This document shows positions 3,831 through 15,512 of a stretch of 15,512 nt of DNA, piece by piece. The first letter of the stretch is position 1. Each line of letters starts with the position of its first letter. The stretch is from a virus (Duplodnaviria; Heunggongvirae; Uroviricota; Caudoviricetes): IMG/VR virus record IMGVR_UViG_2617270964_000015, one strand, 5' to 3'. Made by a program: the position numbers and the translations under genes. The notes beneath the pieces are model-generated. The model saw nothing but the letters and a program-made list of their open reading frames with translations, was not told the DNA's origin and ran no database searches.

Positions 3831-4115
3831 TTACCGCCGCAACCGTTCCGGCTTCTTCCAGTGGTAAGTAATTTTCTCCTTTTCCCGATGCATCTCCACG
3901 CGGCGACGGTATGCCAGCAACCCGAGAACTTTGGTGCGTATGTTGCGCATATCAACGCCGTTAAGCTCGATACCATCGCGGCGCATCACCTCAGCAACAA
4001 CACGCGCGTAATTTTCAGCGGTCACGCTGTCCGGCTGCGTGGCCTCCTGTGTGCCTGTAGCCTGGCTGATTCCGGTAATACTGCGGATTATCCCGAGCAC
4101 TTCGGCTTCAGTCAT
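3831..4115 (-). CDS. Hypothetical protein (~94 aa)
   Basis: Minus-strand ORF; ATG at 4115-4113 lies 8 nt downstream of a GGAGG Shine-Dalgarno (on the coding strand). A second in-frame ATG is at 4121-4119. The longer ORF-track start at 4364 would overlap the upstream lipoprotein gene. No recognisable motif. Confidence 0.35.
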   Translation of the reverse strand: MTEAEVLGIIRSITGISQATGTQEATQPDSVTAENYARVVAEVMRRDGIELNGVDMRNIRTKVLGLLAYRRRVEMHREKEKITYHWKKPERLRR

Positions 4116-4203
4116 TGTCATGGCCTCCGTAGTGATTAGGGGAGTGATGCTGTAATTGTGGCTGCTGGATCCTAGAAGGTGAAGCAGCCTACCAGCACAA
4201 TGT

Positions 4204-5256
4204 TTAGTACCCTCGAGCAGAGTAGACACGGGCCATTCCTGCCCAATGCGAAAACAGGATTTCATACTTGACTGGATTGTAATTAATGCTGCCATCCAGG
4301 GCGGCCGCATTCCATGCCCCGTCTGAAATAGTACGGTCGCTGGCTGTTTTCCCCCACTCGACAATGCTCCTCGCTATGCCCTGAACACATGCGCGATTTA
4401 ATGCCGTCTCACCAACATATGCCCCAGCGTCTGAACATGACTTCATACTCAGATCCAGGCTATTCCTGAAAAATTCCAGCCCGGCAATTGACATAAACCA
4501 GCGACCATTAGCGTATGCCACGCCATCGTTTCTTATTGTGAATTTAATAGTGTGCAGAGCATCAACAATCATCTGTTGCTCAGCTGTTGGATTCTGCCAT
4601 AACACGAGATCAATCGTTTTTTCAGAAGCCTTAGACTCTTCTTTCTCACGCTTGATGCGTTCGTCACGTTCAGCCCGGTATCGCTTTTGGTTTTCGTTAC
4701 GTAACTTCTGGTATTCAGAGGCGAGCTTATCCCGTTCCTGTGCAAAAGTAGCCAGACTCGTTTTAAAATCGCTTTCGTTGACTGTAACAAGCCCCATGCT
4801 CCAGCGATCATTTCCATAATCAGTATAGATAGCGTCAACTTTTGCCGGATTGCTCAATGCTATGGCTAGGTTAACCAGAATCTTCGAGGCTTCCTCACCA
4901 GTTTTGGAGCTATTGTCAAACCTGGATAGTTCCCCGACTCCATTGCCCCCATATTCATGGTAAGCAGCGTAAAACACAGGGATTGTCTGAGGTTTACTAT
5001 TAACCGCCTGGATAATACTTTTATCGTCGCACGTCAGCCCGTCCCACTTAAAGAGACTGCCACCACCGCTTTTGTATGCCTCACAATCATCGATACCCAG
5101 ACGAACCAACGCAGTCCAGCCGGGGCGCTTCTTATACTTGTCGCTTTTGGCGATATGCATTTGTGTTAACGCTTTTGCGGGATCGATCTTCCCCGCGGTG
5201 CAGCCTGTGAACATTAACGCCAAAGAGGTTAAAGCAATGCGATTGATTAAATTCAT
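4204..5256 (-). CDS. Putative lipoprotein with a central coiled-coil segment
   Basis: ORF 4204..5289; the internal ATG at 5256-5254 gives MNLINRIALTSLALMFTGCTAGK, an N-terminal signal with a lipobox-like cysteine. The middle is rich in charged residues (ERDKLASEYQKLRNENQKRYRAERDERIKREKEESKASEK), typical of coiled coil. Start at 5289 is also possible. Stop TAA at 4206-4204. Confidence 0.6.
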   Translation of the reverse strand: MNLINRIALTSLALMFTGCTAGKIDPAKALTQMHIAKSDKYKKRPGWTALVRLGIDDCEAYKSGGGSLFKWDGLTCDDKSIIQAVNSKPQTIPVFYAAYHEYGGNGVGELSRFDNSSKTGEEASKILVNLAIALSNPAKVDAIYTDYGNDRWSMGLVTVNESDFKTSLATFAQERDKLASEYQKLRNENQKRYRAERDERIKREKEESKASEKTIDLVLWQNPTAEQQMIVDALHTIKFTIRNDGVAYANGRWFMSIAGLEFFRNSLDLSMKSCSDAGAYVGETALNRACVQGIARSIVEWGKTASDRTISDGAWNAAALDGSINYNPVKYEILFSHWAGMARVYSARGY

Positions 5257-5335
5257 TATCCTTGTGTCCAGAGTTAGGTCGACCGGCATAGCTTACCCGT
5301 GGAGAAATGAATCGTCGAATGAGTTTGGTCGGGAG

Positions 5336-6007
5336 TTATTCCACCAGCAAAAATGGCGTTGCCCGGTCAATAACGTTGATGCCAATTAACGAGCTAACAT
5401 TGCGACCATTCACAATGCTATCCCGTTCAAGCAAATGCGCTATTTTTTCTACTTCATACCAGTATTGAGCCATGAGGGCTTTGGTCTTTTCAACGAGTTT
5501 AGAAAGCATTAACTCCCTGTTAATTCGCTTATCTGTAGCGCAGATTAAATCGAGCATGTCATTTACGTTAGCCATGTCATAGCGATGAGGCAGCGAATAC
5601 TTTTTGTTGAAAATATCGTTGTTTTCGTAAAGGGCTTCGCTTACTGGTCCGGCGAGGGATACAAAAGCGGCCTTTATTGCATCGCGCTTTATACCATCCG
5701 CATAGTAACGTATGAAAGGGATAACTTTACCATCCCGCCCAACTACACCAGATTTACTATCCCGCAAACGCCCGAGATCGTGGCTGTGAATTATGCTGTG
5801 TTTAACAACGCCCAAACACTTGGCCTCATGTACATGTTCGCCAGCAACGTAACCGTATTCATCCATAACGGCGATAACCTGTACATCTAAGCGAATAAGC
5901 CATGCAGCTACTGCATGGCCCGCTTCGTGGAATGCTACACATCGTTTACCATCGCCTATCCAGTTATAGAACATTTCCTGCTCATATATCTGGTGAATGG
6001 CGCCCAT
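5336..6007 (-). CDS. Stand-alone FtsH/peptidase-M41-like HExxH zinc metalloprotease domain protein (no AAA ATPase domain)
   Basis: ATG at 6007-6005 overlaps the upstream stop (TAATG). The translation carries CVAFHEAGHAVAAWL, with the HEAGH codons at about 5914-5928 on the minus strand, resembling the FtsH protease-domain zinc motif (HEAGHA). Downstream SLAGPVSEALYEN and NVNDMLDLICATDK resemble later FtsH protease-domain segments. At 223 aa it is too short to include an ATPase module. Confidence 0.6.
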   Translation of the reverse strand: MGAIHQIYEQEMFYNWIGDGKRCVAFHEAGHAVAAWLIRLDVQVIAVMDEYGYVAGEHVHEAKCLGVVKHSIIHSHDLGRLRDSKSGVVGRDGKVIPFIRYYADGIKRDAIKAAFVSLAGPVSEALYENNDIFNKKYSLPHRYDMANVNDMLDLICATDKRINRELMLSKLVEKTKALMAQYWYEVEKIAHLLERDSIVNGRNVSSLIGINVIDRATPFLLVE

Positions 6008-6183
6008 TACGCGCCCTCGCTTGCCAGTGAGGCCAGAGCCTTAGCCATGAGGCCGCGGGCAATCTGGTGAACGGTGGGAGCGACGCCGAGATTGGAGCGC
6101 TGGCGTTCACGTTCCTGAATGTTGCGTATGGCCTGCATCTGCTCGGCGGACAGCAGGACCGGCTTAACGTTTGGCTTTCTCAT
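6007..6183 (-). CDS. Small basic protein (~58 aa), translationally coupled to the protease-domain gene
   Basis: The ORF-track frame 6007..6276 begins at a TTG (6276-6274, shown as M). The ATG at 6183-6181 gives MRKPNVKPVLLSAEQMQAIRNIQERERQRSNLGVAPTVHQIARGLMAKALASLASEGA; an ATG at 6207-6205 is also in frame. Stop TAA (6009-6007) overlaps the downstream ATG. The true start is uncertain. Confidence 0.35.
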   Translation of the reverse strand: MRKPNVKPVLLSAEQMQAIRNIQERERQRSNLGVAPTVHQIARGLMAKALASLASEGA

Positions 6184-6358
6184 TCTGTTCACTCCAGAAC
6201 CGTGCATTTGATTCGTTGAGTTGCTGCAGGTTGCGACTCTGGCGATCGAAGTTATTGCGTGCCTTTGCCGCTTCAAGATCCTGACGGGTCAGCATCGGGC
6301 GGTGGGCGCGCTGTGGGTTGCCTGCGGCTAATTTCGGGTCATAGATAGGCATGCTCAT
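6164..6358 (-). CDS. Small hypothetical protein (64 aa)
   Basis: ATG at 6358-6356 sits 6 nt after the stop of the 183-aa gene and is preceded by AAAGAG. The 3' end overlaps the start region of the 58-aa ORF in another frame by about 20 nt. Confidence 0.4.
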   Translation of the reverse strand: MSMPIYDPKLAAGNPQRAHRPMLTRQDLEAAKARNNFDRQSRNLQQLNESNARFWSEQNEKAKR

Positions 6359-6364
6359 ATCTCT

Positions 6365-6916
6365 TTAGTGTTTTTTGCCCCAGAAGGTGGCGTTGTCAGC
6401 ATTGATGCTGCGGATTGCGTCTCCTGTAGAAATTATTTTCGGAGCGATATTGTTTGCTTTCATGTAGTCGCCAACCTGCTCGAGTATATCGATAGCCTGA
6501 TCCAGCTGGATTTCTGACATTGGGGTAGGGTGTACGGCGCTGAACGCCTCAGCAGGGGCGTAGCGCAGCACATCGAGCGCAACGATGCGCGGGTCGGCGT
6601 CGGGCAGTGCTGAATCGTATTTCGGCGCTACGGCACGTACCAGACGCATGAACTCAGCATTCATTGCTATCGGTGCCGTGGAAGTAGCAGACGTGCCATT
6701 CAAACCGCGGGAAATCATATCACTGTCGCGGGTGTACATGCGGCGCAGGCGGTCGCCGGTGGCGATGCGCATTTTGCGTTCTTTCTCGAGTGTCGTTGCA
6801 AGACTTGCAATGATGGTCGCAACGGTTCCGCTGCACTGGAACTCCTCTTTACTGCCGTCGGCATACGTCACCACGCCATCTTCGCCAGTCACGGCGATGT
6901 TTGTAATATCTTTCAT
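6365..6916 (-). CDS. Hypothetical protein (183 aa), first gene of a four-gene cassette
   Basis: ATG at 6916-6914 with GAGG 8 nt upstream on the coding strand. Stop TAA at 6367-6365. No motif I can assign. Confidence 0.6.
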   Translation of the reverse strand: MKDITNIAVTGEDGVVTYADGSKEEFQCSGTVATIIASLATTLEKERKMRIATGDRLRRMYTRDSDMISRGLNGTSATSTAPIAMNAEFMRLVRAVAPKYDSALPDADPRIVALDVLRYAPAEAFSAVHPTPMSEIQLDQAIDILEQVGDYMKANNIAPKIISTGDAIRSINADNATFWGKKH

Positions 6917-7030
6917 CGGTCAGACCTCAGTATGTTCTATCGGATATTTATGTTTCATTATACGCAATAATGATATTTATTGTTGCAATTATTGCAATGT
7001 GTTTTTCTTGTGATAACATGCAAATTGAGG
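6917..7030 (-). promoter_or_regulatory. Promoter/operator-like region upstream of the 183-aa gene
   Basis: AT-rich. A perfect TATAAT on the minus strand (plus-strand attata at 6957-6962). Two adjacent palindromes: caataa-tgatat-ttattg (6965-6982) and ttgcaat-t-attgcaa (6983-6997). The best -35 candidate, ttgcaa, lies 20 nt from the -10, which is too far, so exact promoter geometry is unresolved. Confidence 0.4.
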
Positions 7031-7087
7031 TCAGAACTCAATGAGTTGGTTCCAAACATGGTTACTGGTACACAAAAGCCCGTGCGT

Positions 7088-7115
7088 CTCCAGCGCGGGC
7101 TTTTTACTGGCACAA
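7088..7115 (+). terminator. Intrinsic terminator-like hairpin (plus strand), A-run before and T-run after
   Basis: gcccgtg / cgcgggc stem (7 bp with one G-U pair), 9-nt loop, followed by ttttt at 7111-7115 and preceded by aaaa. Confidence 0.45.
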
Positions 7116-7123
7116 AAAAGCCG

Positions 7124-7147
7124 GGAAAAATCCCGGCCTCCGTCACT
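7124..7147 (-). terminator. Rho-independent terminator of the ProQ-like/PerC-like operon
   Basis: Minus-strand reading: stop TGA of the PerC-like gene, then gccggga-tttt-tcccggc (perfect 7-bp GC-rich stem, 4-nt loop; plus coordinates 7130-7147), then tttttt (plus-strand a-run 7124-7129). Confidence 0.65.
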
Positions 7148-7430
7148 GACTGCAATTTTTCGATCCAGGGTATTTCCTGAATGCCTTACCATTGGGCTGA
7201 TGTAATCCCATCCCGGCATGTGCCCGGCTGATGGTTTCGCGCATCTCCCCGAAATTATCCTGCCTTGCTGGTGGGCGTGCTGCCTTGTGGATACATTCCG
7301 CACGACGCTTTGCCGCCTGTTCCCGTGCCTTGTCATCATTCGCCAGCATGATGACCTCAGCCCACCGCGCCGCCGCTCTCCGGTACAGGCCACGCGCTTC
7401 CAGTGCTTCCGCTTTGCTGTCGTGAATCAT
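7143..7430 (-). CDS. PerC-family-like small transcriptional regulator (95 aa)
   Basis: N-terminus MIHDSKAEALEARGLYRRAAARWAEVIM matches my recollection of the PerC-family N-terminal signature (AE-LE--G-YRRAA-RW-EV). ATG at 7430-7428 overlaps the upstream stop (ATGA, 7427-7430). Confidence 0.5.
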   Translation of the reverse strand: MIHDSKAEALEARGLYRRAAARWAEVIMLANDDKAREQAAKRRAECIHKAARPPARQDNFGEMRETISRAHAGMGLHQPNGKAFRKYPGSKNCSQ

Positions 7431-7969
7431 GCGCCTGTTTTCTCCCTGGCTGCCCGGCGCTGGCGTTTGCGCTTCTCATTCAGCGCCACCAGCCGCGTTT
7501 CTGCCTCCTGCTGTTCCTGTGGTGTCACTTCCCCACATGGCTGGCCTTTCAGGTCGTAGCGTCCCCCACCAGCCATTAAGGCGCGGTAATAGCGCGGACA
7601 CTGCGCATAAGATGCCAGCGTCGCACGTAATGCCCCTGGCCCGAATGCCAGCCCCCTGACGGCGAGATCCTGCATCAGGTCGTCGAATATCCCCACCTTA
7701 AGCGGCTTCGGTGCTTCCCGGCTGAATAATTCAGGCCACAGTTCGATAAGGCGGTTAACGCGTCTGCGGTTTTTGCGCTGGCGTTTGGTCATATGCCGCC
7801 ACGGTGTCGCCCCTGTGGGCTTCTGCTGCGCTTTCTGGTTATCGGGCATCACTTTATGCGCCGATGTGGTTTTATCCTGCTCCTGTGCCGCCTGCGTCGT
7901 TTTCTGCGGCGTGCCGTAAATGCCTTTAGGTTTTCTGTTAATGGTCAGCTTTGTCATGCTTTGCCCCAT
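7427..7969 (-). CDS. ProQ/FinO-family RNA-binding protein
   Basis: PLKVGIFDDLMQDLAVRGL...YRALMAGGGRYDLKGQPCGEVTPQEQQEAETRL parallels the ProQ N-terminal FinO-like domain as I recall it (PLKIGIF-DL, RYL, R-DL-G-PCGE) and is followed by a basic tail. ATG at 7969 or at 7957-7955; the latter has GGGG 6 nt upstream. Confidence 0.7.
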   Translation of the reverse strand: MGQSMTKLTINRKPKGIYGTPQKTTQAAQEQDKTTSAHKVMPDNQKAQQKPTGATPWRHMTKRQRKNRRRVNRLIELWPELFSREAPKPLKVGIFDDLMQDLAVRGLAFGPGALRATLASYAQCPRYYRALMAGGGRYDLKGQPCGEVTPQEQQEAETRLVALNEKRKRQRRAAREKTGA

Positions 7970-7974
7970 CGTTA

Positions 7975-8312
7975 CAACTGTCTACCAACTGTCTACTGAT
8001 ATAATTTATTGATTTATTTCATATTATTCACACATGAATAAAAAACAACCTATCAACTATCTACCAACTGTCTACCGCATTAATGCATTGATAATTAATG
8101 ATTTTTACTAAATGGTAGACAGAGTAGACAGTTAAAAGAGAAATTTTAAAAATGAACCCTTAACTATCTGTTTTTATATACCCCCCGTGGTTTAGGAATA
8201 TAGAAACAACTGTCTACTCTCTACCACATTTAAAAATATCTATACAATTCAATGTATTAATTGGTAGATAGTTGGTAGAGGGTTAAGTATTACTGTCTAC
8301 CAACAGTCTACC
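7975..8312. repeat. Iteron array: about 12 copies of a 10-11 bp motif CAACTGTCTAC(C) in six tandem pairs, both orientations; putative replication origin
   Basis: Direct pairs at 7975-7996 (caactgtctac x2), 8054-8075 (caactatctac + caactgtctac), 8207-8226 and 8292-8312. Inverted pairs at 8114-8133 (ggtagacagagtagacagtt) and 8262-8280 (ttggtagatagttggtagag). AT-rich stretches lie between pairs at about 8000-8050 and 8135-8200. The array sits directly 3' of the primase gene. Confidence 0.6.
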
Positions 8313-8339
8313 TTTACGTTTCAGCTTATAAATTTCGTA

Positions 8340-10145
8340 TTATGTTCTGTCGTTAATCCCTGTTGCTGCTGGCAACCAGCCATCAGCATCATCATCTAAC
8401 AGAACATTTGTTATCACTCGCCCTTTATCCGGGCCTTTAGTGCATTTAGCCCGCTTATACTCCTTTCCGTATTCCGCCATAGCACCCGGCATATCAGTGC
8501 CAAAGCGTTTCAGTGATACTGGTTTTCCCAGACCATGCGCTGACATATAGGCTAAATAAGCATGATACAGATATCGCCTCGGGCTAAATGGCACTATTCC
8601 CGCATTACCCACCATCATTCCTTCACATTTAACCAACGACATCAGATATCCGCAAAAGTCCACCAGTGAATCACCCTCACGTTTTATCACCAGAGCCTCT
8701 TCTGATTTCTGCTGCTCATATAACAGACGTCTGGCTTCATCCTGGTCAGAAAAACGAGTAAGCAGGTGGCGAATCACTACCGCCAGTTCGCCTTCTATTT
8801 TTTCCACCAGCATGGGATCGCGTTCGTTCTCCGGTACGACCTCAGAGAAATTAAATATCACCCTACGACGCGAGATCCCCCCGCTTCGGTCACTGAATGA
8901 CATGGCGTTATTGTTTACTGCCAGCACTACCGCCGGAATACGAGTGGAGTATGGGGCTTTATGTTTCGGGTCGATCGCCACCTTGTCACCACCAGTAATT
9001 GCCTTAATTCCTGCACCATCACCAGCGTAGCGGGTCATATCCGGCATGATAATCAGCGAAAAGCCAACGACTAACGCGCGTTCCCTTGCGTCTTCCAGCG
9101 CCTTCATGCTTGCCGATACTGTATTGGCCTTACCCGCCAGCATGGTACAAATCTCCGCCATCACACTTTTACCGCTTCCGCCCGGCCCCGTTACCTCAAG
9201 GAATAACTGCCAGTCGTACCGGTTCGCCAGTACCATGAATAATGCCGCCAGTACGCGATCTGCTTTACGATCGTTATTTGCCACCGAACGACGCAGCCAC
9301 TTCCAGAAATTCGGCGCATGTGTTGCCAGTGTTTCCCCCTCTGCTGGTGGGCTGAACGGTAATTCACTGGCATTTAACAACCAGTCATTTTTGTTATGCT
9401 CCCGAAAATTTCCTGTCCGGGTATCAAATACCCCGTTACTGAATCCAATAAGATTCCTGTCTGCCCCGCCCATAACAGGCAGGCTCAATTTCATTGTGTC
9501 TACGGCAAATTTAATGGCGTTTTGCGAATAACTGATTCCAGCATCAATAAAAATCTTCGCCATAGACCGCTGGAGTTCCTTATCAGATACAGGCTCCCAG
9601 ACAATTCCGTTGTAATGGTGAACTACATCAGAATCGTCATTTATAGCCAGTGCCCTTCCATAATATTCAAGCAATACTTCCCCTCTCTGGCTGGCTCCCA
9701 TCTGATTTAGTGCTGGCCTGGGTAGGTCACTATTTTTTGTGACTAATTTCATCGCTGAAACTTCCCCGCGCTCTGCCTGTTCGCGGATCCGTTGCAGGTA
9801 ATCGCGCCAGTTCTCCGGCTCCCGGTCGGTGATGCCTTTGTATAATTTCGCCTCCTGTACGCCAGCCAGTGCCAGTTTTTCAGCGATAGCATTGATCTGG
9901 ATTGGTTCGATCTCCCCCGCGAGATAGACACGCGCAAAGCGGCGTTCATCGTCGACAATGCGGATATTCGCCAGGTCTGCCAGTTGCTTTGGCCCCAAGT
10001 AAACAGGTGGTACGTTATCGCCGTGCTTCCGTCCTTCGCTTTCAATCCAGTGTTGAGCATGGGAGTAAGCATCCGTCCCGGCAAAAATGATTACCTCAGT
10101 GAATTTATCCTTCGGCTGATATTTCAAATTCGGTGCGTTTTTCAC
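8340..10145 (-). CDS. P4-family phage/plasmid primase-like replication protein with P-loop NTPase module
   Basis: 601-aa ORF with Walker A GPGGSGKS. Overall resemblance to satellite/PICI primase-replication proteins is from memory only. Start is GTG at 10145-10143 with GGAGG just upstream, overlapping the upstream gene's stop (GTGA). Stop TAA at 8342-8340. Confidence 0.8.
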   Translation of the reverse strand: MKNAPNLKYQPKDKFTEVIIFAGTDAYSHAQHWIESEGRKHGDNVPPVYLGPKQLADLANIRIVDDERRFARVYLAGEIEPIQINAIAEKLALAGVQEAKLYKGITDREPENWRDYLQRIREQAERGEVSAMKLVTKNSDLPRPALNQMGASQRGEVLLEYYGRALAINDDSDVVHHYNGIVWEPVSDKELQRSMAKIFIDAGISYSQNAIKFAVDTMKLSLPVMGGADRNLIGFSNGVFDTRTGNFREHNKNDWLLNASELPFSPPAEGETLATHAPNFWKWLRRSVANNDRKADRVLAALFMVLANRYDWQLFLEVTGPGGSGKSVMAEICTMLAGKANTVSASMKALEDARERALVVGFSLIIMPDMTRYAGDGAGIKAITGGDKVAIDPKHKAPYSTRIPAVVLAVNNNAMSFSDRSGGISRRRVIFNFSEVVPENERDPMLVEKIEGELAVVIRHLLTRFSDQDEARRLLYEQQKSEEALVIKREGDSLVDFCGYLMSLVKCEGMMVGNAGIVPFSPRRYLYHAYLAYMSAHGLGKPVSLKRFGTDMPGAMAEYGKEYKRAKCTKGPDKGRVITNVLLDDDADGWLPAATGINDRT

Positions 10146-10432
10146 TTCTTACCTCCCGCAACCAACATTGCCCGGATTTTTTTAATATTCGTGGCTGCAC
10201 GTCTCGCCACTGCCTGTTGTTTGTTTTCAAGCAGAATAAAATCACGCTCAAACTGACGGCGCGGCATTACGCAGTCATATTCGTAAGCCTCACGGCGGTA
10301 GGTGATATTGCCTGGCGTAACGTGACGAATAACCACTCGTCCCCCACGCCTGGTGTCGCGGTAAATATCTCCGTGTCTGATTTCAGGTCGAGAGAGGCCG
10401 CTGGCAGTAAAGCCAGAATTTTTCTTTTTCAT
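10142..10432 (-). CDS. Hypothetical basic protein (96 aa), translationally coupled to the primase gene
   Basis: ATG at 10432-10430; stop TGA overlaps the primase GTG start. Lys/Arg-rich, no motif assigned. Confidence 0.5.
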   Translation of the reverse strand: MKKKNSGFTASGLSRPEIRHGDIYRDTRRGGRVVIRHVTPGNITYRREAYEYDCVMPRRQFERDFILLENKQQAVARRAATNIKKIRAMLVAGGKK

Positions 10433-10485
10433 GGTTTTATTTTCCTGTCAGCAGTTCCGGTTTTATTTCCGCACGAATACAGAGT

Positions 10486-10638
10486 TCAGAAAAAAAATTC
10501 AGGAGAACCAACAATCTCATTACTTTTCAGTCGGCATTGTGATTTCACTTTCCCTTTATCCAAGTAAACCAGCACGCGTCCGGTGAAATCATCTGGCACA
10601 CTCAGGGTAATTGTCATTGTTGCTTGCTGATTATCCAT
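10486..10638 (-). CDS. Small ORF (50 aa) carrying the third copy of an FTG repeat unit; likely the out-of-frame 3' part of the upstream gene
   Basis: ATG at 10638-10636 lies immediately after the homopolymer. The translation MDNQQATMTITLSVPDDFTGRVLVYLDKGKV... repeats the FTG-x-LV unit found twice in the upstream ORF. Confidence 0.3.
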   Translation of the reverse strand: MDNQQATMTITLSVPDDFTGRVLVYLDKGKVKSQCRLKSNEIVGSPEFFF

Positions 10639-11000
10639 GATTCCCCCCCCCCCTGAATAACCTGATAACCGCAACTGGTCAGCAATTCGATAAATTCCGG
10701 CAATGTGCCGAAACAGCAATCATCACGCAGACGTTCGCGGGATACCTCAACGTCGTTTTCATAATGGCTCACCATGCGTCCGGTAAAATGCAAATCATCA
10801 TCGTGATGGCACGTTGACGGTTTAATCAGTCGCGCACGCTCTGCCAGTTCCAGCAATGCTTCAACACTTCCGGCAATTGCACCATCCGGCAGGTGGTAAT
10901 TACGCACTATGCGCCCGTTCTCCACATGGACCAGTAGCTGCCCGGTAAATTTCTCGTCAAACTGAATGCGGTTAAGGTCGGTAAGTGACAGGTTAATCAT
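10614..11000 (-). CDS. Hypothetical protein with two internal repeats (128 aa as read), ending just after a G11 tract
   Basis: ATG at 11000-10998 overlaps the upstream stop (ATGATTAA). Repeats DEKFTGQLLVHVENGRIV and DLHFTGRMVSHYENDVEV. C-terminus ...VIQGGGESWIISKQQ is encoded across the homopolymer. Confidence 0.5.
   Translation of the reverse strand: MINLSLTDLNRIQFDEKFTGQLLVHVENGRIVRNYHLPDGAIAGSVEALLELAERARLIKPSTCHHDDDLHFTGRMVSHYENDVEVSRERLRDDCCFGTLPEFIELLTSCGYQVIQGGGESWIISKQQ
10643..10653. repeat. Homopolymeric tract C11 (G11 on the coding minus strand) inside a coding region
   Basis: ttcccccccccccctg; eleven consecutive C at 10643-10653. Confidence 0.9.
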
Positions 11001-11358
11001 GGCGCACCTCCTGGCGAATACGGGCGGCGAATACCATCACGCAGCCATCAGGAGATTGCTGGCGTGCTTCCTGTTCGCTGGTGGCCTCGATGTGAATCAC
11101 GCGCGGTTGTGCCGTACTCAGGGCGATAAAACGCCAGATAGAATTGTTTTCGCATTTCTGAATAAACAGCGTGTTTTCTTCGCGCCCTTTCCATGTTGCC
11201 GAGATATAGCCCATGTCATTGAGCATCTCGCAGGCATCCACCAGCGTATCAGCGGCTACGTGTACAGTGTTTTTACCGTCAGCTATGCAATCACGGTGCA
11301 CCGCCAGGAAGGTGTATATAAATTTAGGGTGAGTTTGGGTATGCTGTGTTCCAGCCAT
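10993..11358 (-). CDS. Hypothetical protein (121 aa), first gene of the primase operon
   Basis: ATG at 11358-11356 with GAGG upstream on the coding strand. This is the 3' third of the 382-aa ORF-track entry 10993..12141, whose upstream part crosses the divergent regulatory region and a plus-strand gene. Stop overlaps the next start. Confidence 0.5.
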   Translation of the reverse strand: MAGTQHTQTHPKFIYTFLAVHRDCIADGKNTVHVAADTLVDACEMLNDMGYISATWKGREENTLFIQKCENNSIWRFIALSTAQPRVIHIEATSEQEARQQSPDGCVMVFAARIRQEVRHD

Positions 11359-11557
11359 AATCGTTACCTCGTTTAACGGTTTGGTTAGAAGCCCCGTTAC
11401 TGCTCCAACAGTGCGGGGCTTCGTTGTTTCAATTGCTGAATTGCATGTATCAGCCCTTGTGGTATTCAGATTACATTTTGGTGAATACCATTTCAAGTCT
11501 TTTTTGGTATTCACTTTTGTATTACACTGCATCCCGTTATTAATCGGAGGTGCAAAC
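11359..11557. promoter_or_regulatory. Divergent intergenic control region with hairpin and GGTATTCA operator-like repeats
   Basis: Stem-loop gaagccccg-(17 nt)-cggggcttc at about 11390-11425. Three copies of GGTATTCA / TGAATACC at about 11460-11516, one inverted. GGAGG at 11546-11550 precedes the ATG at 11558. Confidence 0.45.
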
Positions 11558-11863
11558 ATGTCCACGAGTTCTGTTAACAATAAGTCACAGCAACTGAATG
11601 CCAGATTTCCACATGAAGTAGTGAGTGGCATTGAGGCATCCCTACAGCCAGGGGAAACTAAAGCGAATTTTATAGTTACGGCTGTACGCGGTGAGATCGC
11701 CCGCCGCCAGGCAGAAGGAAGCGGAGAAAACCCCCTAGTTTCTTCGCTCGATGCGCTGGCGCAGGTGGAAAAAATCGGTGTCAAAGCTGCCGAGGAGATC
11801 GGGCAACTCGTCACCGTCGCGCGTGAAGAACTCCAGCGGCGCAAGGCCAAAGAACAGGAGTAG
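11558..11863 (+). CDS. Ribbon-helix-helix (Arc/MetJ-type) DNA-binding regulator, 101 aa
   Basis: ATG at 11558 seven nt after GGAGG; the ORF-track start at 11381 is unlikely because it crosses the control region. QQLNARFPHEVVSGIEA then ANFIVTAVRGEIARRQ fits the beta-strand-helix-helix pattern of Arc-like repressors. It is the only confident plus-strand gene inside the element. Confidence 0.55.
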   Translation: MSTSSVNNKSQQLNARFPHEVVSGIEASLQPGETKANFIVTAVRGEIARRQAEGSGENPLVSSLDALAQVEKIGVKAAEEIGQLVTVAREELQRRKAKEQE

Positions 11864-12119: not shown

Positions 12120-12133
12120 TAACGGTCAGAGCG

Positions 12134-12982
12134 TTACACATGGCTGTTTTCCTCCATGCGACGGGCTAACCAACGCTGCGAAAGACGAATTAATTCAGCT
12201 TTCCGCTGGTGGTAGTCCTGGCCTAACTCAATCAGCGTGATATTGCTCTGCTCAAGGTAAGAAAGGTGCTCAAGCTGCAACGTGCTCATGTGGTCGCGTG
12301 GTTCGCCTGTAATGCCGTTCGCCTGCGCCCACTGTTTTGCAGTCATGCCACCCAGCACGATACGCGCCAGCATATTGGCTTCCGTGGTGTAGTGGTGCTG
12401 GAGTGTGTTTTTACCCAGCTCAGCCCGGTATGCTTCCAGCGCGGCGCACATCGGCTTAAAGTAGCTGGCAACGGTGATACGGGCTTTCAGTTCCCGGCGT
12501 AACGCTGCGGAACGCACTGGCGCTACCTTGTGTAGCTCCTCCTCGCATTTGATGAAGTACTGACGAACGGCACGGCCCTGTTCGGTGCGTTCGACCATCG
12601 CCAGTTCTTTTGCCATGTTCGTGGAGATCAAATAGTCTTCACTGCGACGATCACCGCCGCGCTTTGTTGTCCAATCAGAATCAAACTGTTCAATATTTAC
12701 ACTTTGGTTCCCCCGTTTCGGGGAATCAAAGTACAAATTTTCTACAACTTTAAAATCCACGCCATTTTTAAATCCGTACTCATCAATACGTCCTTTAATC
12801 CAGGTAGTGAAATCACGGCCTCCCCCGAGCGCCTTATGCAACGCTCTGGCGCTAACAATATTGGTTTCACGCCCGCCAATAACGCCGGAAATAACCGGGA
12901 TAATTTCGCCGAAATTTTGCAGATTCTGGTTTTCAGGCCGAACTAAGCCCTGCCCCTGTACGGGCGTTTTTCGCTGTTTCAT
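12134..12982 (-). CDS. AntA/AntB-family phage antirepressor-like protein
   Basis: ATG at 12982-12980 with AGGAG 5 nt upstream. N-terminal region ARALHKALGGGRDFTTWIKGRIDEYGFKNGVDFKV ... MAKELAMVERTEQGRAVRQYFIKCEE matches the AntA-domain pattern I recall (DF-TWIK-RI--YGF, AKELAMVER--G---RQYFI-CE). Confidence 0.65.
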   Translation of the reverse strand: MKQRKTPVQGQGLVRPENQNLQNFGEIIPVISGVIGGRETNIVSARALHKALGGGRDFTTWIKGRIDEYGFKNGVDFKVVENLYFDSPKRGNQSVNIEQFDSDWTTKRGGDRRSEDYLISTNMAKELAMVERTEQGRAVRQYFIKCEEELHKVAPVRSAALRRELKARITVASYFKPMCAALEAYRAELGKNTLQHHYTTEANMLARIVLGGMTAKQWAQANGITGEPRDHMSTLQLEHLSYLEQSNITLIELGQDYHQRKAELIRLSQRWLARRMEENSHV

Positions 12983-13059
12983 AAAAACTCCTGCTAACGA
13001 ATTAAGTTACTTTTATTTGCTGGTGGATAGCTGGGGCTTCTGGCCCCGTAGCCATTTAA

Positions 13060-13260
13060 TCAGGTAGCTGTTCCGCGTGATTCCGCAATACGCTGATTAA
13101 TCCACTCGTCAATTTCACTCTCAACGAAAGCAATAGCTCGCGAGCCAATTTTTACAGGTTTAGGAAAACTCCCTTGGGCAATGAGTTTATAGATCCATGC
13201 CCTTCCATAGCCTGTACGGCGCATGGTTTCTGACATACGAATTAAATTTTGCTTATCCAT
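13060..13260 (-). CDS. alpA: AlpA-family transcriptional regulator / excisionase-like HTH protein
   Basis: MDKQNLIRMSETMRRTGYGRAWIYKLIAQGSFPKPVKIGSRAIAFVESEIDEWINQR matches the AlpA family (small HTH protein ending -EIDEWI-QR). ATG at 13260-13258 has AGGAG 6 nt upstream; the ORF-track start at 13305 is less likely. It lies downstream of int on the same strand, as in P4-like and PICI elements. Confidence 0.75.
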   Translation of the reverse strand: MDKQNLIRMSETMRRTGYGRAWIYKLIAQGSFPKPVKIGSRAIAFVESEIDEWINQRIAESRGTAT

Positions 13261-13317
13261 ACACTTCTCCTGATGCATATAAAAGTCTGTTTCTGGAATA
13301 TACACAAGAGAAGGATG

Positions 13318-13380
13318 TATTTTTTAAATTAAATATTAAAATTTAAATTAAATACAATTTAATTCAATTTAAATAATTTT
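13318..13380. repeat. AT-only low-complexity repeat (AATTTAAAT-type units) spanning the 3' end of the cargo gene and the alpA upstream region
   Basis: ttttttaaattaaatattaaaatttaaattaaatacaatttaattcaatttaaataatttt, with multiple overlapping direct and palindromic AAATT/AATTT units. Confidence 0.6.
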
Positions 13381-14267
13381 CTGTACTCCTCTGGGATAAC
13401 CAAGCGGAAATCATCTTTTGTTTCCACTCCTGTTTTGCCAATTCCTTCTGAACAAAGAATATTTCTAATTGTACCTACTTTAGGCGTATTAACAGCATCA
13501 ATAGAATAAAGCAAGGAGTGTATTTTATTGATAATTAATGTCGTATGGCTCCACGGATAAGAAATACGAGTAGCTTTCGCTACATCAACAATAACATTTC
13601 GATAGATATTTCTAGGCTTACCCACCATTTTGTTAATTGTTTCGCAACTACGTGAATTCACCCCATCCATTTTACTTTTAATAAAATCGGGATACTTTTC
13701 CATAGATGATTTGACTTGGTTTAATCTCCAATTTATTGTCACCCCACCATTTTTAAGCAAAAATAATTCACTTTTAGTTATAACTAAATCGCTTGTTTTA
13801 ATATTTATACCGCCATTAATTAAAATTACTCGTGGGTTATAATCCTCCAAGTTATAGTGCGTAAAAGATGGAAGCCTCACTGGATATAGCCTATCAACAA
13901 CAAATTCTTTTACGTTATCAAAATCAGCATCCATCTTAAAAAGATTGGATATTCGGACAGAAAAAAGACCACAGGCCTTAATGACTTTTCTATGTTTTAA
14001 CTTTCCATTAGATTCGCAACTAATAACTTCACTTATTTTTGCATAGTTAGAGCGATGTCTGAATTTTTTACTTCTTGTATTAGAAAATATTTCTTTATTA
14101 AATTTACCACGAACAGAGACCCTTCCTTCTTCAATAAGCTCTGACAAATCTATATTTATTGCTACATCAACCATTCCGATTGATATATAGTGAAATAAAT
14201 CATAAACATCTCTATTTATCTCAAAAGCTGCTTTATTCAGAGTGTAAAACAATCTTTCAGGAAGCAT
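13359..14267 (-). CDS. Hypothetical AT-rich cargo protein (302 aa) between int and alpA
   Basis: ATG at 14267-14265 with AGGTGA upstream, only about 30 bp after the integrase stop. Uninterrupted 302-codon ORF in clearly AT-rich DNA (by eye about one-third G+C, against about half in flanking int and alpA). Asn/Ile/Lys-rich; no catalytic motif I can name. Confidence 0.6.
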   Translation of the reverse strand: MLPERLFYTLNKAAFEINRDVYDLFHYISIGMVDVAINIDLSELIEEGRVSVRGKFNKEIFSNTRSKKFRHRSNYAKISEVISCESNGKLKHRKVIKACGLFSVRISNLFKMDADFDNVKEFVVDRLYPVRLPSFTHYNLEDYNPRVILINGGINIKTSDLVITKSELFLLKNGGVTINWRLNQVKSSMEKYPDFIKSKMDGVNSRSCETINKMVGKPRNIYRNVIVDVAKATRISYPWSHTTLIINKIHSLLYSIDAVNTPKVGTIRNILCSEGIGKTGVETKDDFRLVIPEEYRKLFKLN

Positions 14268-14297
14268 GATATCACCTATATAAGAATATCAATGTAA

Positions 14298-15512
14298 TCA
14301 ATCTAATTTTTCAGATTTTATGTAAACAACGTTTCCGCCATGCTCAAGCGAATCCATATAGTCGGCGTACCACTGGAGCATTTCCCGGCGACCATCCAGA
14401 TATTGCGCATGGTTGTATGTGCCACGAATTGAGTTTTTATCGGCGTGCGCAAGCTGTGTCTCTATCCACGCGGTGTTATAGCCCTGCTCATGCAAAATGG
14501 TGCTCATGGTGTGCCGGAATCCATGACCAGTAACGCGCCCGGCGTAGCCAATACGACGAATGAGCACATTCATTGCCATTTCACTCATTGGCTTACTGTG
14601 GTGAATACGACCGGGGAAAATAAACTGATACTGGCCTGTCATGTTTTTTAACTGCTCCAGTATTTTTATCGCCTGTTCTGGTAATGGCACACAATGCGGA
14701 CGGCGCATCTTCATTCGTTCTTTAGGCACTTCCCACAAACGATTATCAAAATCGATCTCCCGCCATTCTGCCTGCCGTAATTCCCCGGGTCTGACACCTG
14801 TCAGAATTAATAGCCGCATTGCCAGTTTGACGATCTGGCTTCCGGTGTACGTATTAAAAACGCGGAAAAATTCCGGCAGTTCGTCGGCCTTCAGATAGGC
14901 GTAATGCTCTTTTTTATGTGGAGCAAATGCGCTCACCAGGTCAGGGGCTGGATTATATTCGGCGCGTCCGGTGATGATTGCGTACCGGAACACCTCGCCA
15001 CATCGCTGGCGAACCTTACGCAATTTTTCAGTCGCACCACGGTCATTAAGACGGGAAAGAACCGCCAGCAATTCCATCGGCTTAATTTCTGCGATCGGCC
15101 TACCGCCAATGTACGGAAAAACATCTTTTTCAAACGTCTCGATCATTTCCTCGGCGTATGACGATGACCACCTGTCGATCCGCTTTTCGTACCATTCGCG
15201 AGCGATACCCTCAAAAGTATTGCCAAATTTGCTCGCCTGTTCTCGCTTTTGGGCTTTTCTGGCCTCACTTGGATTTATACCACCAGCAAGAAGCCTTTTA
15301 GCCTCATCCCTTGCCGCCCTGGCATCAGACAGAGACACATCAGGGTACACACCCAACGACAACATTTTGGGCTTTCCTGCAAACCTGTAGCGCAGTCGCC
15401 ACCCTTTCGAACCGTTCGGCTCAATGAGCAACGAAAGCCCGTTACCGTCATTGAGTGTATAAGCCTTTTCTTTCGGCTTCGCGCGCCTGATGGCAAGGTC
15501 TGAAAGCAGCAT
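14298..15512 (-). CDS. int: Tyrosine recombinase, P4-type phage integrase
   Basis: ATG occupies the last three bases of the window (15512-15510). N-terminus MLLSDLAIRRAKPKEKAYTLNDGNGLSLLIEPNGSKGWRLRYRF is the P4-integrase arm-binding signature. C-terminal catalytic region GHGFRHTMSTIL ... LAHADKNSIRGTYNHAQY carries the R/HxxR/Y residues. Upstream promoter and att site are outside the window. Confidence 0.85.
   Translation of the reverse strand: MLLSDLAIRRAKPKEKAYTLNDGNGLSLLIEPNGSKGWRLRYRFAGKPKMLSLGVYPDVSLSDARAARDEAKRLLAGGINPSEARKAQKREQASKFGNTFEGIAREWYEKRIDRWSSSYAEEMIETFEKDVFPYIGGRPIAEIKPMELLAVLSRLNDRGATEKLRKVRQRCGEVFRYAIITGRAEYNPAPDLVSAFAPHKKEHYAYLKADELPEFFRVFNTYTGSQIVKLAMRLLILTGVRPGELRQAEWREIDFDNRLWEVPKERMKMRRPHCVPLPEQAIKILEQLKNMTGQYQFIFPGRIHHSKPMSEMAMNVLIRRIGYAGRVTGHGFRHTMSTILHEQGYNTAWIETQLAHADKNSIRGTYNHAQYLDGRREMLQWYADYMDSLEHGGNVVYIKSEKLD

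What the first reader, a model, noticed from the sequence alone, without database searches (positions are those of the whole stretch)
3831..15512. Element has integrase, alpA, primase and ori but no recognisable packaging or capsid-redirection genes in the window
Gene order int - cargo - alpA - antirepressor - regulator - primase - ori, all on one strand, matches PICI-type satellites rather than P4, where int lies downstream of alpha. The distal half carries RNA-binding, regulatory, protease and lipoprotein genes instead of the small-terminase or capsid-remodelling genes expected of a satellite. Either those functions are encoded by the unassigned proteins (183 aa, 121 aa, 96 aa) or the element is a degenerate or non-packaging island.
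Basis: inference. Interest (0 to 1): 0.4.

Follow-up and report, generated by a model that had tools for sequence, protein, structure and literature searches.

The report
PICI-type satellite lacking its packaging module
This is an 11.8-kb phage-satellite island (PICI family) inserted in an E. coli glycine tRNA gene. Its integration and replication genes are intact, but the usual phage-hijacking genes have been swapped for a mobile five-gene cargo cassette, a common and largely ordinary kind of element.

Summary
The element belongs to the E. coli PICI family. It shares Icd-like, YlcI/YnfO, DUF4222, Pri (44% identity), PerC and a conserved terminal gene (72%) with the archetype EcCICFT073.

The true boundary is the attR copy of the tRNA-Gly(CCC) 3' end at 3232-3249, not 3831. 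attL and the tRNA lie about 165 bp beyond the window end.

The element has no Rpp, no lambda or P2 cos site, and no capsid genes. Sister islands at the same site with the same core carry an Rpp-like TerS-domain protein and a DUF2213 head-protease-like gene. Here that region (3384-7094) is replaced.

Of the replacement, 4194-7105 is a five-gene cassette that also sits next to the integrase of unrelated P4-primase islands, so it is cargo rather than packaging.

Structure searches on the 183-aa and 96-aa proteins were uninformative.

Verdict: a "Type C" PICI, of modest interest.

The parts
3232..3249 (.). attR core: a copy of the 3' end of tRNA-Gly(CCC), TGGAGCGG-CGAAGGGAA, matching 17 of 18 bases with one G missing.
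   Evidence: The 18-bp direct repeat lies 11,814 bp apart in the near-identical locus L002. The same 1-bp deletion is present in strain cq9. Empty-site genomes join window 3200-3249 to tRNA-Gly. The tRNA anticodon is ccc.
3250..3383 (.). Distal att arm that travels with the glyU-type integrase module.
   Evidence: It is 96% identical to sister glyU islands L010 and L001, but absent from the ileY-site copy L005, whose homology stops at 3371.
3433..3650 (-). Frameshifted, 3'-truncated fragment of a terminase small-subunit gene, covering roughly aa 41-113 of 249-258.
   Evidence: It is 78-81% nt identical to Klebsiella phage terS and 84% to the E. coli prophage terS in L008. That gene lies upstream of a PBSX-type TerL and a DUF1073 portal. 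tblastn matches it in two frames. It hits the TerS family phrog_370 at E 5.5e-4; the intact L008 gene hits phrog_370 at E 9e-95.
3371..3830 (.). Element tail made of gene remnants: an h59-like piece at 3371-3442, the terS piece, and an ash-family piece at 3705-3782.
   Evidence: The same tail is present in the ileY-site copy L005 at 98.7% identity.
3831..4121 (-). Conserved terminal gene of 94-96 aa (phrog_1561), function unknown.
   Evidence: It is 72% aa and 82% nt identical to the last gene of EcCICFT073, which follows rppA. A homologue is also the last gene, after TerL, of cfPICI-like islands. The family has 989 protein clusters. dN/dS against the EcCICFT073 gene is 0.38. The AF2 model has pLDDT 59 and gave no fold match.
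4194..7105 (-). Mobile five-gene cargo cassette: 183 aa, 62 aa, 58 aa, M41-like protease and lipoprotein, plus about 190 bp upstream.
   Evidence: It is 93% identical as one block to a cassette lying directly next to the integrase of yicC-site P4-primase islands, L004 and L014. It is absent from the sister glyU islands.
4204..5289 (-). Putative lipoprotein of 350-361 aa.
   Evidence: The N-terminus carries a hydrophobic stretch followed by ..LMFTGC (translations). No family hit. dN/dS is 0.23.
5336..6007 (-). Stand-alone FtsH-like (M41) zinc metalloprotease domain of 223 aa with a HEAGH motif.
   Evidence: The protein itself scores only 21 bits on Peptidase_M41. Distant relatives found in the scan of 1.84 billion proteins pass the M41 cutoff, for example P0204 at 59.8 bits. 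dN/dS is 0.22-0.24. The pair with the 58-aa gene also sits after the primase in an island with EcCIMP1-like annotated gene content, L015.
6007..6183 (-). 58-aa protein. It is 54% identical to the first gene of the sister islands' distal module. A ribbon-helix-helix fold is my reading of the sequence only.
   Evidence: tblastn of L010 h57 against the window gave E 3e-16. No family hit.
6164..6358 (-). 62-64-aa protein of unknown function.
   Evidence: Annotated in relatives. Identical to the L004 copy.
6365..6916 (-). 183-aa protein of unknown function.
   Evidence: No Pfam, PHROG, PADLOC or PDB sequence hit, and one NCBIfam hit far below its cutoff. The family has 41 clusters, named by sources from Escherichia, Salmonella, Enterobacter, Klebsiella, Serratia, Raoultella and Rahnella. 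The AF2 model has pLDDT 66.8 and gave no fold match in the PDB or BFVD.
7143..7430 (-). PerC-family regulator.
   Evidence: PF06069, E 5e-32. It is 52% identical to EcCICFT073 PerC.
7427..7969 (-). ProQ/FinO-domain RNA-binding protein.
   Evidence: PF04352, E 3e-23. Also present in the sister islands. dN/dS is 0.08.
7976..8312 (.). Replication origin: 12 iterons (AACTGTCTACC) in two sets flanking an AT-rich core.
   Evidence: GC content is 0.30. The layout matches that described for E. coli PICI origins (PMC6092414).
8340..10145 (-). Pri-Rep: a D5-type primase-helicase of 601 aa.
   Evidence: D5_N, DUF5906 and Pox_D5 domains. It is 44% identical over its full length to EcCICFT073 Pri, E 5e-160. 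dN/dS is 0.12.
10142..10432 (-). DUF4222 protein of 96 aa, overlapping the pri start.
   Evidence: PF13973, E 2e-19. It is 51% identical to the EcCICFT073 gene in the same position.
10486..11000 (-). Two small early-module ORFs related to phrog_340: a 128-aa ORF and one of roughly 50-77 aa.
10993..11250 (-). Icd-like protein; the start codon is uncertain.
   Evidence: It is 74% identical to EcCICFT073 Icd-like. It hits phrog_6196 at E 6e-29.
11558..11863 (+). YlcI/YnfO-family gene, divergently transcribed.
   Evidence: NF041551, E 3e-16. It is 43% identical to the EcCICFT073 ylcI gene, which has the same divergent orientation.
12134..12982 (-). AntA/Ant-type antirepressor.
   Evidence: PF08346, E 2e-22, and phrog_5817, E 5e-36.
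13060..13305 (-). AlpA-family regulator, the likely master activator.
   Evidence: PF05930, E 4e-19. The role is inferred from EcCICFT073 and EcCIMP1 experiments (PMC6092414, PMC11773190).
13359..14267 (-). 302-aa low-GC orphan in the int-alpA accessory slot.
   Evidence: GC content is 0.316. No hit in four libraries. Sister islands carry a gene annotated at 265 aa in this slot, and window 13216-14325 has no DNA match to them.
14298..15512 (-). Tyrosine integrase of 404 aa, intact.
   Evidence: It is 98% identical to the integrases of sister glyU islands. The tRNA-Gly lies about 165 bp beyond in L001 and L002.

Best explanation
The window holds almost all of an ~11.8-kb member of the E. coli PICI family of phage satellites. 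It is integrated by a tyrosine integrase into the 3' end of tRNA-Gly(CCC), the glyU locus beside the ETT2 island.

By analogy with EcCICFT073 and EcCIMP1 (inferred, not shown here), a helper phage would switch on AlpA. AlpA would drive the leftward operon, the integrase would excise the element, and Pri-Rep would fire the iteron origin.

The difference from characterised relatives lies in the segment downstream of perC. Sister islands carry an Rpp-like TerS-domain protein and a DUF2213 head-protease-like gene there. EcCICFT073 carries capsid-like genes, Rpp and two cos sites. In this element that segment has been replaced by recombination.

The replacement consists of three things:
- a self-contained five-gene accessory cassette (183-aa protein, two small proteins, a stand-alone FtsH-like metalloprotease and a lipoprotein);
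- the conserved terminal gene;
- a tail of gene scars that includes a dead terS fragment.

The cassette is most likely cargo, such as phage exclusion or defence, or another host-benefit function, rather than packaging machinery. The element therefore has no dedicated means of redirecting a helper's terminase or capsid. Any transfer would depend on helper packaging of its replicated concatemers, either non-specifically or through a cis site.
For: Family placement:
- Synteny and homology with EcCICFT073 cover ylcI (43%), icd (74%), DUF4222 (51%), pri (44%, E 5e-160), perC (52%) and the terminal gene (72%).
- The origin has the PICI layout.
- Size is 11,814 bp between the att repeats in L002.

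Absence of a hijack module:
- tblastn with RppA, the capsid-like, decoration-like and SSB genes of EcCICFT073 finds nothing.
- As a positive control, RppA finds RppC (6HLK) at 5e-31, while the 183-aa and 96-aa proteins find nothing.
- The exact lambda cosN occurs twice in EcCICFT073 and never in the window at up to 2 mismatches. There is no P2 cos.

Replacement:
- Sister glyU islands share 7095-11863 (95%), int (98%) and the att arm, but not 3384-7094.
- Their own module includes h174, which hits phrog_57 TerS just as RppA does, and a DUF2213 gene that hits the head-protease family phrog_530.

Cargo nature of the cassette:
- The same block (93% identical) lies next to the integrase in yicC-site islands.
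- The protease pair lies beside pri in L015.
- Accessory immune genes in PICIs are reported at the 5' or 3' ends and in a further region beside pri (PMC11364771).

Not in general decay:
- dN/dS is 0.08-0.24 for int, pri, proQ, the protease and the lipoprotein.
- The same core and distal half (98-99.8% identical) is joined to a different integrase at tRNA-Ile in strain 47-1826.
Against: - No experiment shows induction, excision, replication or transfer of this element.
- The function of every cassette protein is unknown, and PADLOC finds no defence model.
- The structure models were too poor to exclude a novel terminase- or capsid-binding protein.
- The direction of the module swap, loss here versus gain in the sister islands, is inferred only from the terS and other scars.
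- EcCIMP1 shows that a PICI with no recognised packaging gene can still be transferred specifically (PMC11773190). 'No dedicated packaging' may therefore be wrong.
- The attR core has a 1-bp deletion, and one copy (L001) has a frameshifted integrase. Some copies may be immobile.
Confidence: 0.6

Rival explanations
1. The element is a working satellite that needs no packaging protein. The retained terS fragment at 3433-3650 carries the helper's pac site. A pac-type helper, such as a lambdoid prophage with a phrog_370 TerS, PBSX TerL and DUF1073 portal, would then start headful packaging on the satellite's concatemers. This would parallel cos-site carriage by SaPIbov5 or EcCICFT073.
For: - The fragment is 84% identical over 173 bp to the terS of an E. 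coli prophage family, full-length copies of which occur in at least 112 of 5,426 complete genomes.
- It is kept in all four copies of the element, including the one at a different att site.
- From general knowledge, pac sites of P22-type phages lie inside the terS gene.
- The element appears to have moved between strains and att sites.
Against: - The fragment sits among other obvious gene scars, the ash-like and h59-like pieces.
- It was not detected in the sister islands or in the other satellite loci compared with it.
- The copies are too similar (96-99%) to show selection on it.
- The pac site of this phage family is unmapped.
Confidence: 0.15
2. The cassette is itself a novel hijack or interference module. 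For example, the metalloprotease might cleave a helper scaffold, capsid or repressor protein, and the 183-aa protein might redirect the terminase. Under this reading the unassigned proteins do provide satellite functions.
For: - The cassette occupies the post-ori position where PICIs keep interference genes (PMC6739421).
- Its 58-aa gene is homologous to the first gene of the sister islands' hijack module.
- The protease pair replaces the phage ejection-protein genes at the same position in an island with EcCIMP1-like annotated gene content.
- The genes are under purifying selection.
Against: - The whole block also lies next to the integrase, upstream of alpA, in yicC-site islands. That position is an accessory slot rather than a late-operon slot.
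- There is no sequence or fold similarity to TerS, Rpp, scaffold, Sid or Psu.
- A lipoprotein is an odd component for packaging.
Confidence: 0.1
3. The element is a defective relic. Having lost its hijack module, the island is no longer mobilised and persists as a vertically inherited island kept for its regulators (PerC, ProQ) or its cargo.
For: - It has only a terS pseudogene and scarred tail.
- The attR core carries a 1-bp deletion.
- In L001 the integrase is frameshifted and no lipoprotein CDS is annotated.
- Elements with only three PICI core components are flagged in the literature as possibly defective (PMC10085698).
- It is rare: one place covers at least 80% of the whole window in only 1 of 5,426 genomes, and just three listed genomes (EC02, 47-1826, Z1323CEC0013) carry this core with this distal half.
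Against: - int, alpA, pri and the origin are intact here, with dN/dS 0.1-0.2.
- The same element is fused to another integrase at another tRNA in an unrelated strain, and occurs in hosts from three continents.
Confidence: 0.15

Closest known systems
EcCICFT073, the Rpp/cos-type E. coli PICI (Fillol-Salom 2018, 2019)
   Same: - The order is int, accessory gene, alpA, then a divergent ylcI, followed by icd, small ORFs, DUF4222, pri, iteron ori, perC and so on to the terminal 93-96-aa gene.
- Homologous proteins are 43-74% identical.
- Size class and tRNA- or gene-end integration are similar.
   Different: - EcCICFT073 has a major-capsid-E-like gene, a head-decoration-like gene, RppA (144 aa) and two exact lambda cosN sites flanking rppA.
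- The window has none of these. It carries ProQ/FinO, AntA and the five-gene cassette instead.
Sister glyU islands in strains cq9 and ETEC4077 (uncharacterised)
   Same: - Same integrase (98%) and att site.
- Same alpA/antA region (87-96% nt).
- Same pri, ori, proQ and perC (95% nt).
   Different: - Their distal module is h57, h194, DUF2213 (phrog_530 head-protease-like), h174 (phrog_57 TerS N-terminal domain, as in RppA) and h59.
- The window has the cassette, the full terminal gene and a terS scar there.
EcCIMP1 (Pick et al. 2025, PMC11773190)
   Same: - It has int, alpA, an AntA antirepressor, DUF4222, Icd-like, a primase and PerC.
- No recognised terS, Rpp or capsid-remodelling gene is present.
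- It was nonetheless shown to be induced and specifically transferred by a helper phage, Kapi1.
   Different: - It has a different primase type (TOPRIM-DUF927), is 20 kb long and integrates at a tRNA-Thr site.
- Its post-primase region carries genes annotated as phage DNA-ejection protein and lytic transglycosylase.
- DNA similarity to the window is only 68-85% in short patches.
SatelliteFinder 'Type C' PICI (de Sousa et al. 2023, PMC10085698)
   Same: It has three of the five PICI core components (integrase, AlpA, primase-replicase) and lacks the capsid-morphogenesis and terS components. More than 6,000 such elements were reported.
   Different: That class is heterogeneous and unvalidated. 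Here, homology to a validated PICI and to complete sister islands shows what was lost and what replaced it.
Satellite P4
   Same: It has an integrase, an AlpA/Vis-like regulator, a D5/alpha-type primase-helicase and an Icd-like gene.
   Different: - No P2/P4 cos site.
- None of the ORFs scanned matched a capsid or scaffold family. Sid, Psu and Delta were not searched for specifically.
- The integrase lies at the start of the co-oriented gene array, as in PICIs.

Membership tests
PICI (Gram-negative, E. coli type) | Integrase at one end, followed by an AlpA-family master regulator in the same orientation. | tested here: met
   int is at 14298-15512(-) and alpA at 13060-13305(-).
PICI (Gram-negative, E. 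coli type) | A Pri-Rep replicon followed by an origin with two iteron sets flanking an AT-rich region. | tested here: met
   Pri is 44% identical to EcCICFT073 Pri. Twelve iterons lie at 7976-8312, and 0 of 200 shuffles match the count. The layout criterion comes from PMC6092414.
PICI (Gram-negative, E. coli type) | Size around 10-15 kb with no phage structural or lysis genes. | tested here: met
   The att repeats are 11,814 bp apart in L002. No structural or lysis family appeared in any ORF tested.
PICI (Gram-negative, E. coli type) | A dedicated att site used by satellites rather than prophages. | tested here: inconclusive
   All glyU-site occupants inspected were satellite-like islands carrying D5-primase, DUF927 or RepA-helicase replicons. 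The site was not surveyed exhaustively.
PICI (Gram-negative, E. coli type) | A packaging or hijack function: terS, Rpp plus a cos site, and/or a capsid-morphogenesis gene. | tested here: not met
   There is no Rpp, capsid or decoration homologue and no cosN. The only related sequence is a frameshifted, truncated terS fragment.
PICI (Gram-negative, E. coli type) | Helper-phage-dependent induction, interference with the helper, and high-frequency transfer. | not testable with these tools
   This requires induction and transduction experiments.
Rpp/cos-type PICI (EcCICFT073 subgroup) | An Rpp protein with a TerS-like winged-helix domain. | tested here: not met
   RppA found RppC (6HLK) at 5e-31 as a control. 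tblastn of RppA against the window gave a best E of 0.036, outside the element. The 183-aa and 96-aa proteins have no PDB hits.
Rpp/cos-type PICI (EcCICFT073 subgroup) | A lambda-like cosN (GGGCGGCGACCT) in the element. | tested here: not met
   There are no matches at up to 2 mismatches, against two exact copies in EcCICFT073.
cfPICI | Its own capsid, portal, head-tail connector and adaptor, TerS and TerL genes. | tested here: not met
   None were found. Only the terminal 94-aa gene is shared with cfPICI-like islands L009 and L013.
P4-like satellite | A psu-delta-sid operon, epsilon, and a P2-type cos site. | tested here: not met
   There is no P2 cos at up to 3 mismatches. No capsid or scaffold family appeared in any ORF scanned. 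Sid, Psu and Delta profiles were not queried specifically.
Peptidase M41 (FtsH protease domain), for the 223-aa protein | A match to the M41 profile above the Pfam gathering score, including the HEXXH zinc site. | tested here: inconclusive
   The protein itself scores 21 bits against a 29.9-bit cutoff, covering only the HEAGH region. Distant relatives reach 59.8 bits. No FtsH protein was recovered directly.

The most novel reading that the evidence does not exclude
One of two unproven readings could be true.

(a) The dead terS fragment serves as a pac-site decoy, letting a protein-free 'minimal hijack' satellite ride pac-type lambdoid phages.

(b) The five-gene cassette (183-aa protein, two small proteins, a stand-alone FtsH-like protease and a lipoprotein) is a new anti-phage or helper-interference system that hops between the accessory slots of unrelated satellite families.
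Probability: 0.2. Interest if true: 0.55.

Novelty: new member of a known kind. Interest (0 to 1): 0.3.

Why it matters

This case shows how one such element arose. A complete PICI backbone swapped its hijack module for a mobile cargo cassette, and the backbone stayed under purifying selection. The same backbone and cassette are also found joined to a different integrase at another tRNA gene.

That history supports the view that satellites evolve by exchanging whole modules. It also points to an uncharacterised five-gene cassette, seen only in satellite-type islands in the contexts inspected, as a candidate for phage-defence screening.

Beyond that the element is an ordinary member of a well-described family.

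Tried and rejected
Sequence and family searches:
- Lambda cosN and P2/P4 cos pattern searches found nothing.
- PDB sequence searches with the 96-aa and 183-aa proteins gave only chance hits.
- PADLOC and NCBIfam scans of the orphan proteins gave nothing useful.
- PHROG scans of the overlapping + strand ORFs in the distal half gave nothing.

Structure-based tests:
- The AlphaFold models of the 183-aa protein (pLDDT 66.8) and the 96-aa protein (pLDDT 59.1) were too weak.
- Foldseek against the PDB and BFVD gave no match better than E = 0.017.

Other leads:
- The promoter and terminator scan of 3200-8400 was not above shuffled expectation for promoters.
- The scan of 1.84 billion proteins with the protease found only 22 relatives and no FtsH directly.
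- A lead that the first 40 nt of terS recur in unannotated DNA, possibly in satellite tails, turned out to be a module junction inside a prophage.
- The cfPICI preprint says nothing about the function of the terminal gene.
- The Tai defence system paper does not involve these proteins.

Rejected readings:
- P4-like satellite: no P2/P4 cos site, no capsid or scaffold family match, and the wrong gene order.
- cfPICI: no capsid or terminase genes.
- Conjugatively mobilised island: no relaxase-like domain appeared in any Pfam scan.

Full report
**Where the window comes from**

All long ORFs from 3831 to 15512 lie on the minus strand. Megablast against 5,426 complete E. coli genomes places the window in the chromosome between the ETT2 type III secretion remnant and the actS/xdhA region. 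The ETT2 side holds a YscQ/HrcQ-family gene at 310-1257 and a GH15 'YgeQ' gene at 1389-3041.

In the closest relatives (L002 from strain EC02, 98-99.8% identical; L001) a tRNA-Gly gene lies about 165 bp beyond the integrase start codon. Its anticodon is CCC. The window itself contains no tRNA, because it ends on the first base of the integrase ORF.

**Boundaries**

The 3' end of the tRNA, TGGAGCGGGCGAAGGGAA, is repeated 11,814 bp away in L002. In the window the distal copy is at 3232-3249 and lacks one G, as it does in strain cq9.

Genomes with an empty site join window 3200-3249 directly to tRNA-Gly (hits H117-H120). The element therefore runs from 3250 to about 185 bp past the window end, not from 3831.

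**Gene content**

Pfam confirms the following:
- an intact three-domain tyrosine integrase;
- AlpA;
- an AntA antirepressor;
- DUF4222;
- a D5_N/DUF5906/Pox_D5 primase-helicase;
- ProQ/FinO;
- PerC.

A YlcI/YnfO-family gene lies on the opposite strand at 11558-11863. An Icd-like gene ends at 10993.

The 370-bp gap between pri and proQ has a GC content of 0.30. It holds twelve copies of AACTGTCTACC in both orientations around an AT-rich core. The window has 15 matches against 2.5 expected, and no shuffle out of 200 reaches that number. This is the layout described for E. coli PICI origins (PMC6092414).

**Family placement**

I fetched the archetypal Gram-negative PICI, EcCICFT073, from the CFT073 genome (L003). 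It shows the same order:
- a divergent ylcI;
- then icd, small ORFs, DUF4222, pri and perC;
- and a terminal 93-aa gene.

Identities to the window are 43% (ylcI), 74% (icd), 51% (DUF4222), 44% over the full length of Pri (E 5e-160), 52% (PerC) and 72% (terminal gene, 82% at the DNA level).

The PICI-not-P4 reading is therefore supported by homology as well as gene order. The window has no P2/P4 cos site, and no capsid or scaffold family matched any ORF scanned.

**What is missing**

Downstream of perC, EcCICFT073 encodes:
- a major-capsid-E-like protein and a head-decoration-like protein;
- a 137-aa protein;
- RppA (144 aa), flanked by two exact lambda cosN sites (L003 7559-7570 on the + strand and 8298-8309 on the - strand).

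The window has no counterpart to any of these. It also has no cosN at up to 2 mismatches. As a positive control, RppA retrieves RppC (PDB 6HLK) at 5e-31, while the window's 183-aa and 96-aa proteins retrieve nothing meaningful.

PHROG, Pfam, NCBIfam and PADLOC scans covered the minus-strand genes and the overlapping plus-strand ORFs. They give a single 'head and packaging' hit, described in the next section.

Window 3433-3603 matches the terminase small-subunit gene of Klebsiella phages at 78-81% nucleotide identity.

It also matches, at 84%, a 249-aa gene of an E. coli prophage. That gene lies upstream of a PBSX-type TerL, a DUF1073 portal, a DUF2213 protein and a DUF2184 protein, and it is a clear TerS (phrog_370, E 9e-95).

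At the protein level the window retains only residues of roughly 41-113, split between two frames and cut off at 3433. The ORF fragment at 3349-3744 hits phrog_370 at 5.5e-4.

The scar sits among other remnants: an ash-family piece at 3705-3782 and a piece of a sister island's terminal gene at 3371-3442. Full-length terS genes of this type occur in at least 112 of the 5,426 genomes.

**Module replacement**

Sister islands at the same tRNA (L010 from cq9, L011 from ETEC4077) share several segments with the window:
- the chromosome flank, attR and att arm (1376-3383, 99%);
- perC, proQ, ori, pri and the early genes (7095-11863, 95%);
- the integrase (98%).

They do not share 3384-7094. In that position they carry:
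- a small protein homologous to the window's 58-aa protein;
- a 194-aa protein;
- a DUF2213 protein, which hits phrog_6216 and weakly the head maturation protease family phrog_530;
- a 174-aa protein whose N-terminus hits phrog_57 'terminase small subunit', exactly as RppA does;
- a shortened terminal gene.

The backbone therefore exists with a recognisable hijack module. In the window that module has been exchanged.

**The replacing cassette is mobile cargo**

Window 4194-7105 holds the 183-aa, 62-aa and 58-aa proteins, the 223-aa HEAGH protease, the lipoprotein and about 190 bp upstream.

The same block recurs as one piece, 93% identical, directly beside the integrase of islands at the yicC/dinD site in O55:H7 DEC5B and EPEC E2348/69. 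Those islands have a P4-family primase and are otherwise unrelated to the window.

The 58-aa and protease pair also lies just after the primase in an island with EcCIMP1-like annotated gene content (L015). Accessory immune genes in PICIs have been reported at the 5' or 3' ends, and in a further region beside pri (PMC11364771).

The genes are under purifying selection: dN/dS is 0.22-0.24 for the protease and 0.23 for the lipoprotein. PADLOC does not recognise them.

The M41 label on the protease rests on the zinc motif for this protein alone (21 bits). It is, however, supported through distant relatives that pass the Pfam cutoff.

**The 'unassigned' proteins**

- One 96-aa ORF (10142-10432) is DUF4222. 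It is conserved upstream of pri in EcCICFT073 and so belongs to the replication module.
- The other 96-aa ORF (3831-4121) is the conserved terminal gene (phrog_1561, 989 clusters). It also ends cfPICI-like islands after TerL.
- The 121/128-aa ORF (10614-11000) is an early-module gene of unknown function (phrog_340 and phrog_2512).
- The 183-aa protein belongs to the cassette. Its family is small (41 clusters), and the source names point to enterobacterial genera.

The models were weak (pLDDT 66.8 and 59.1). Foldseek found no terminase, scaffold, Sid or Psu fold, with no hit better than E = 0.017. This is inconclusive rather than negative.

**Is the element alive?**

- The core genes are intact here and constrained: dN/dS is 0.12 for int, 0.12 for pri, 0.08 for proQ and 0.07 for perC.
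- A copy with the same core and distal half (98-99.8% identical) is joined to a different, 473-aa integrase at a tRNA-Ile gene in a US broiler isolate (L005).
- Other copies come from Spain and South Korea. This argues for recent movement and module shuffling.
- Against this, the attR core is imperfect. One copy has a frameshifted integrase. The element is rare.

**Comparison with the literature**

SatelliteFinder defines five PICI core components: integrase, regulator, primase-replicase, capsid morphogenesis and terS. It reports more than 6,000 'Type C' elements that have only three, and treats them as possibly defective (PMC10085698). This element fits that class.

EcCIMP1 shows that an E. 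coli PICI with AlpA, an antirepressor, a primase and PerC, and no recognised packaging gene, can still be induced and specifically transferred by a helper (PMC11773190). Absence of annotation is therefore not proof of immobility.

**Conclusion**

The best-supported account is a PICI backbone whose hijack module was replaced by a mobile accessory cassette, leaving a terS scar.

Three questions need experiments:
- whether the element still transfers;
- whether the terS fragment acts as a pac decoy;
- what the cassette does.

This kind of element is already known in bulk, so interest is modest.

Noticed in passing
window 1-390 and 310-3041: An IS1 end (InsB C-terminal ORF at 109-375) abuts a YscQ/HrcQ-family ETT2 gene at 310-1257. 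A full-length 550-aa GH15 'YgeQ' ORF lies at 1389-3041. RefSeq annotates the corresponding region as shorter or truncated ygeQ CDSs in L001 and L002.
   Followed up: partly
window 13359-14267 (-): A 302-aa orphan gene with GC 0.316 sits in the int-alpA accessory slot. It has no hit in Pfam, PHROGs, NCBIfam or PADLOC. Sister islands carry a gene annotated at 265 aa in this slot, and this stretch of the window has no DNA match to them. It is a candidate defence or cargo gene.
   Followed up: partly
window 3232-3249: The attR core lacks one G relative to the tRNA copy, so it matches 17 of 18 bases. The same variant occurs in strain cq9 but not in EC02, Z1323CEC0013 or ETEC4077. It might lower excision efficiency.
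   Followed up: partly
window 4194-7105 versus L004 11001-13915: The cassette is itself mosaic. Its 183-aa, 62-aa and 58-aa proteins are 98-100% identical to the DEC5B copy. The protease and lipoprotein are only 90% and 86% identical, which points to recombination inside the cassette.
   Followed up: partly
window 3831-4121 (-); L003 8374-8655; L009/L013 9250-9531: A 93-96-aa gene (phrog_1561, 989 clusters) is the last gene before attR in three island types: the Rpp-type PICI EcCICFT073, cfPICI-like islands (where it follows TerL), and this element. Its function is unknown and none of the papers read mention it.
   Followed up: partly
L010 3325-3849 and 4020-4673; L011 1459-1986 and 4756-5439: Sister glyU islands encode a 174-aa protein with a TerS/Rpp-like N-terminal HTH (phrog_57) and a short DUF2213 protein. 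DUF2213 is also found in the head module of the prophage family whose terS fragment lies in the window. This suggests the lineage parasitises that pac-type phage family.
   Followed up: partly
L005 (strain 47-1826) 9749-21662: The same core and distal half is fused to a different, 473-aa integrase at a tRNA-Ile site beside the gab operon. This is a clean example of integrase-module swapping between satellites.
   Followed up: partly
L004 and L014 (yicC-dinD site; O55:H7 DEC5B and EPEC E2348/69): These islands run int, cassette, alpA-like HTH, Icd-like and a P4-family primase, then end right after the primase. They have no packaging genes and represent another 'Type C'-style satellite family.
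   Followed up: no
window 10486-11000 (-): Two adjacent ORFs both match phrog_340. This may be a tandem duplication or a frame-disrupted pair in the early module. This stretch is also the most variable part of the core among relatives.
   Followed up: no
L016 (strain LWY24) 8001-8040: The first 40 nt of the phrog_370-type terS survive as an unannotated remnant in a prophage where a differently annotated terS/TerL pair now follows. Terminase modules in these phages appear to be exchanged at this junction.
   Followed up: partly
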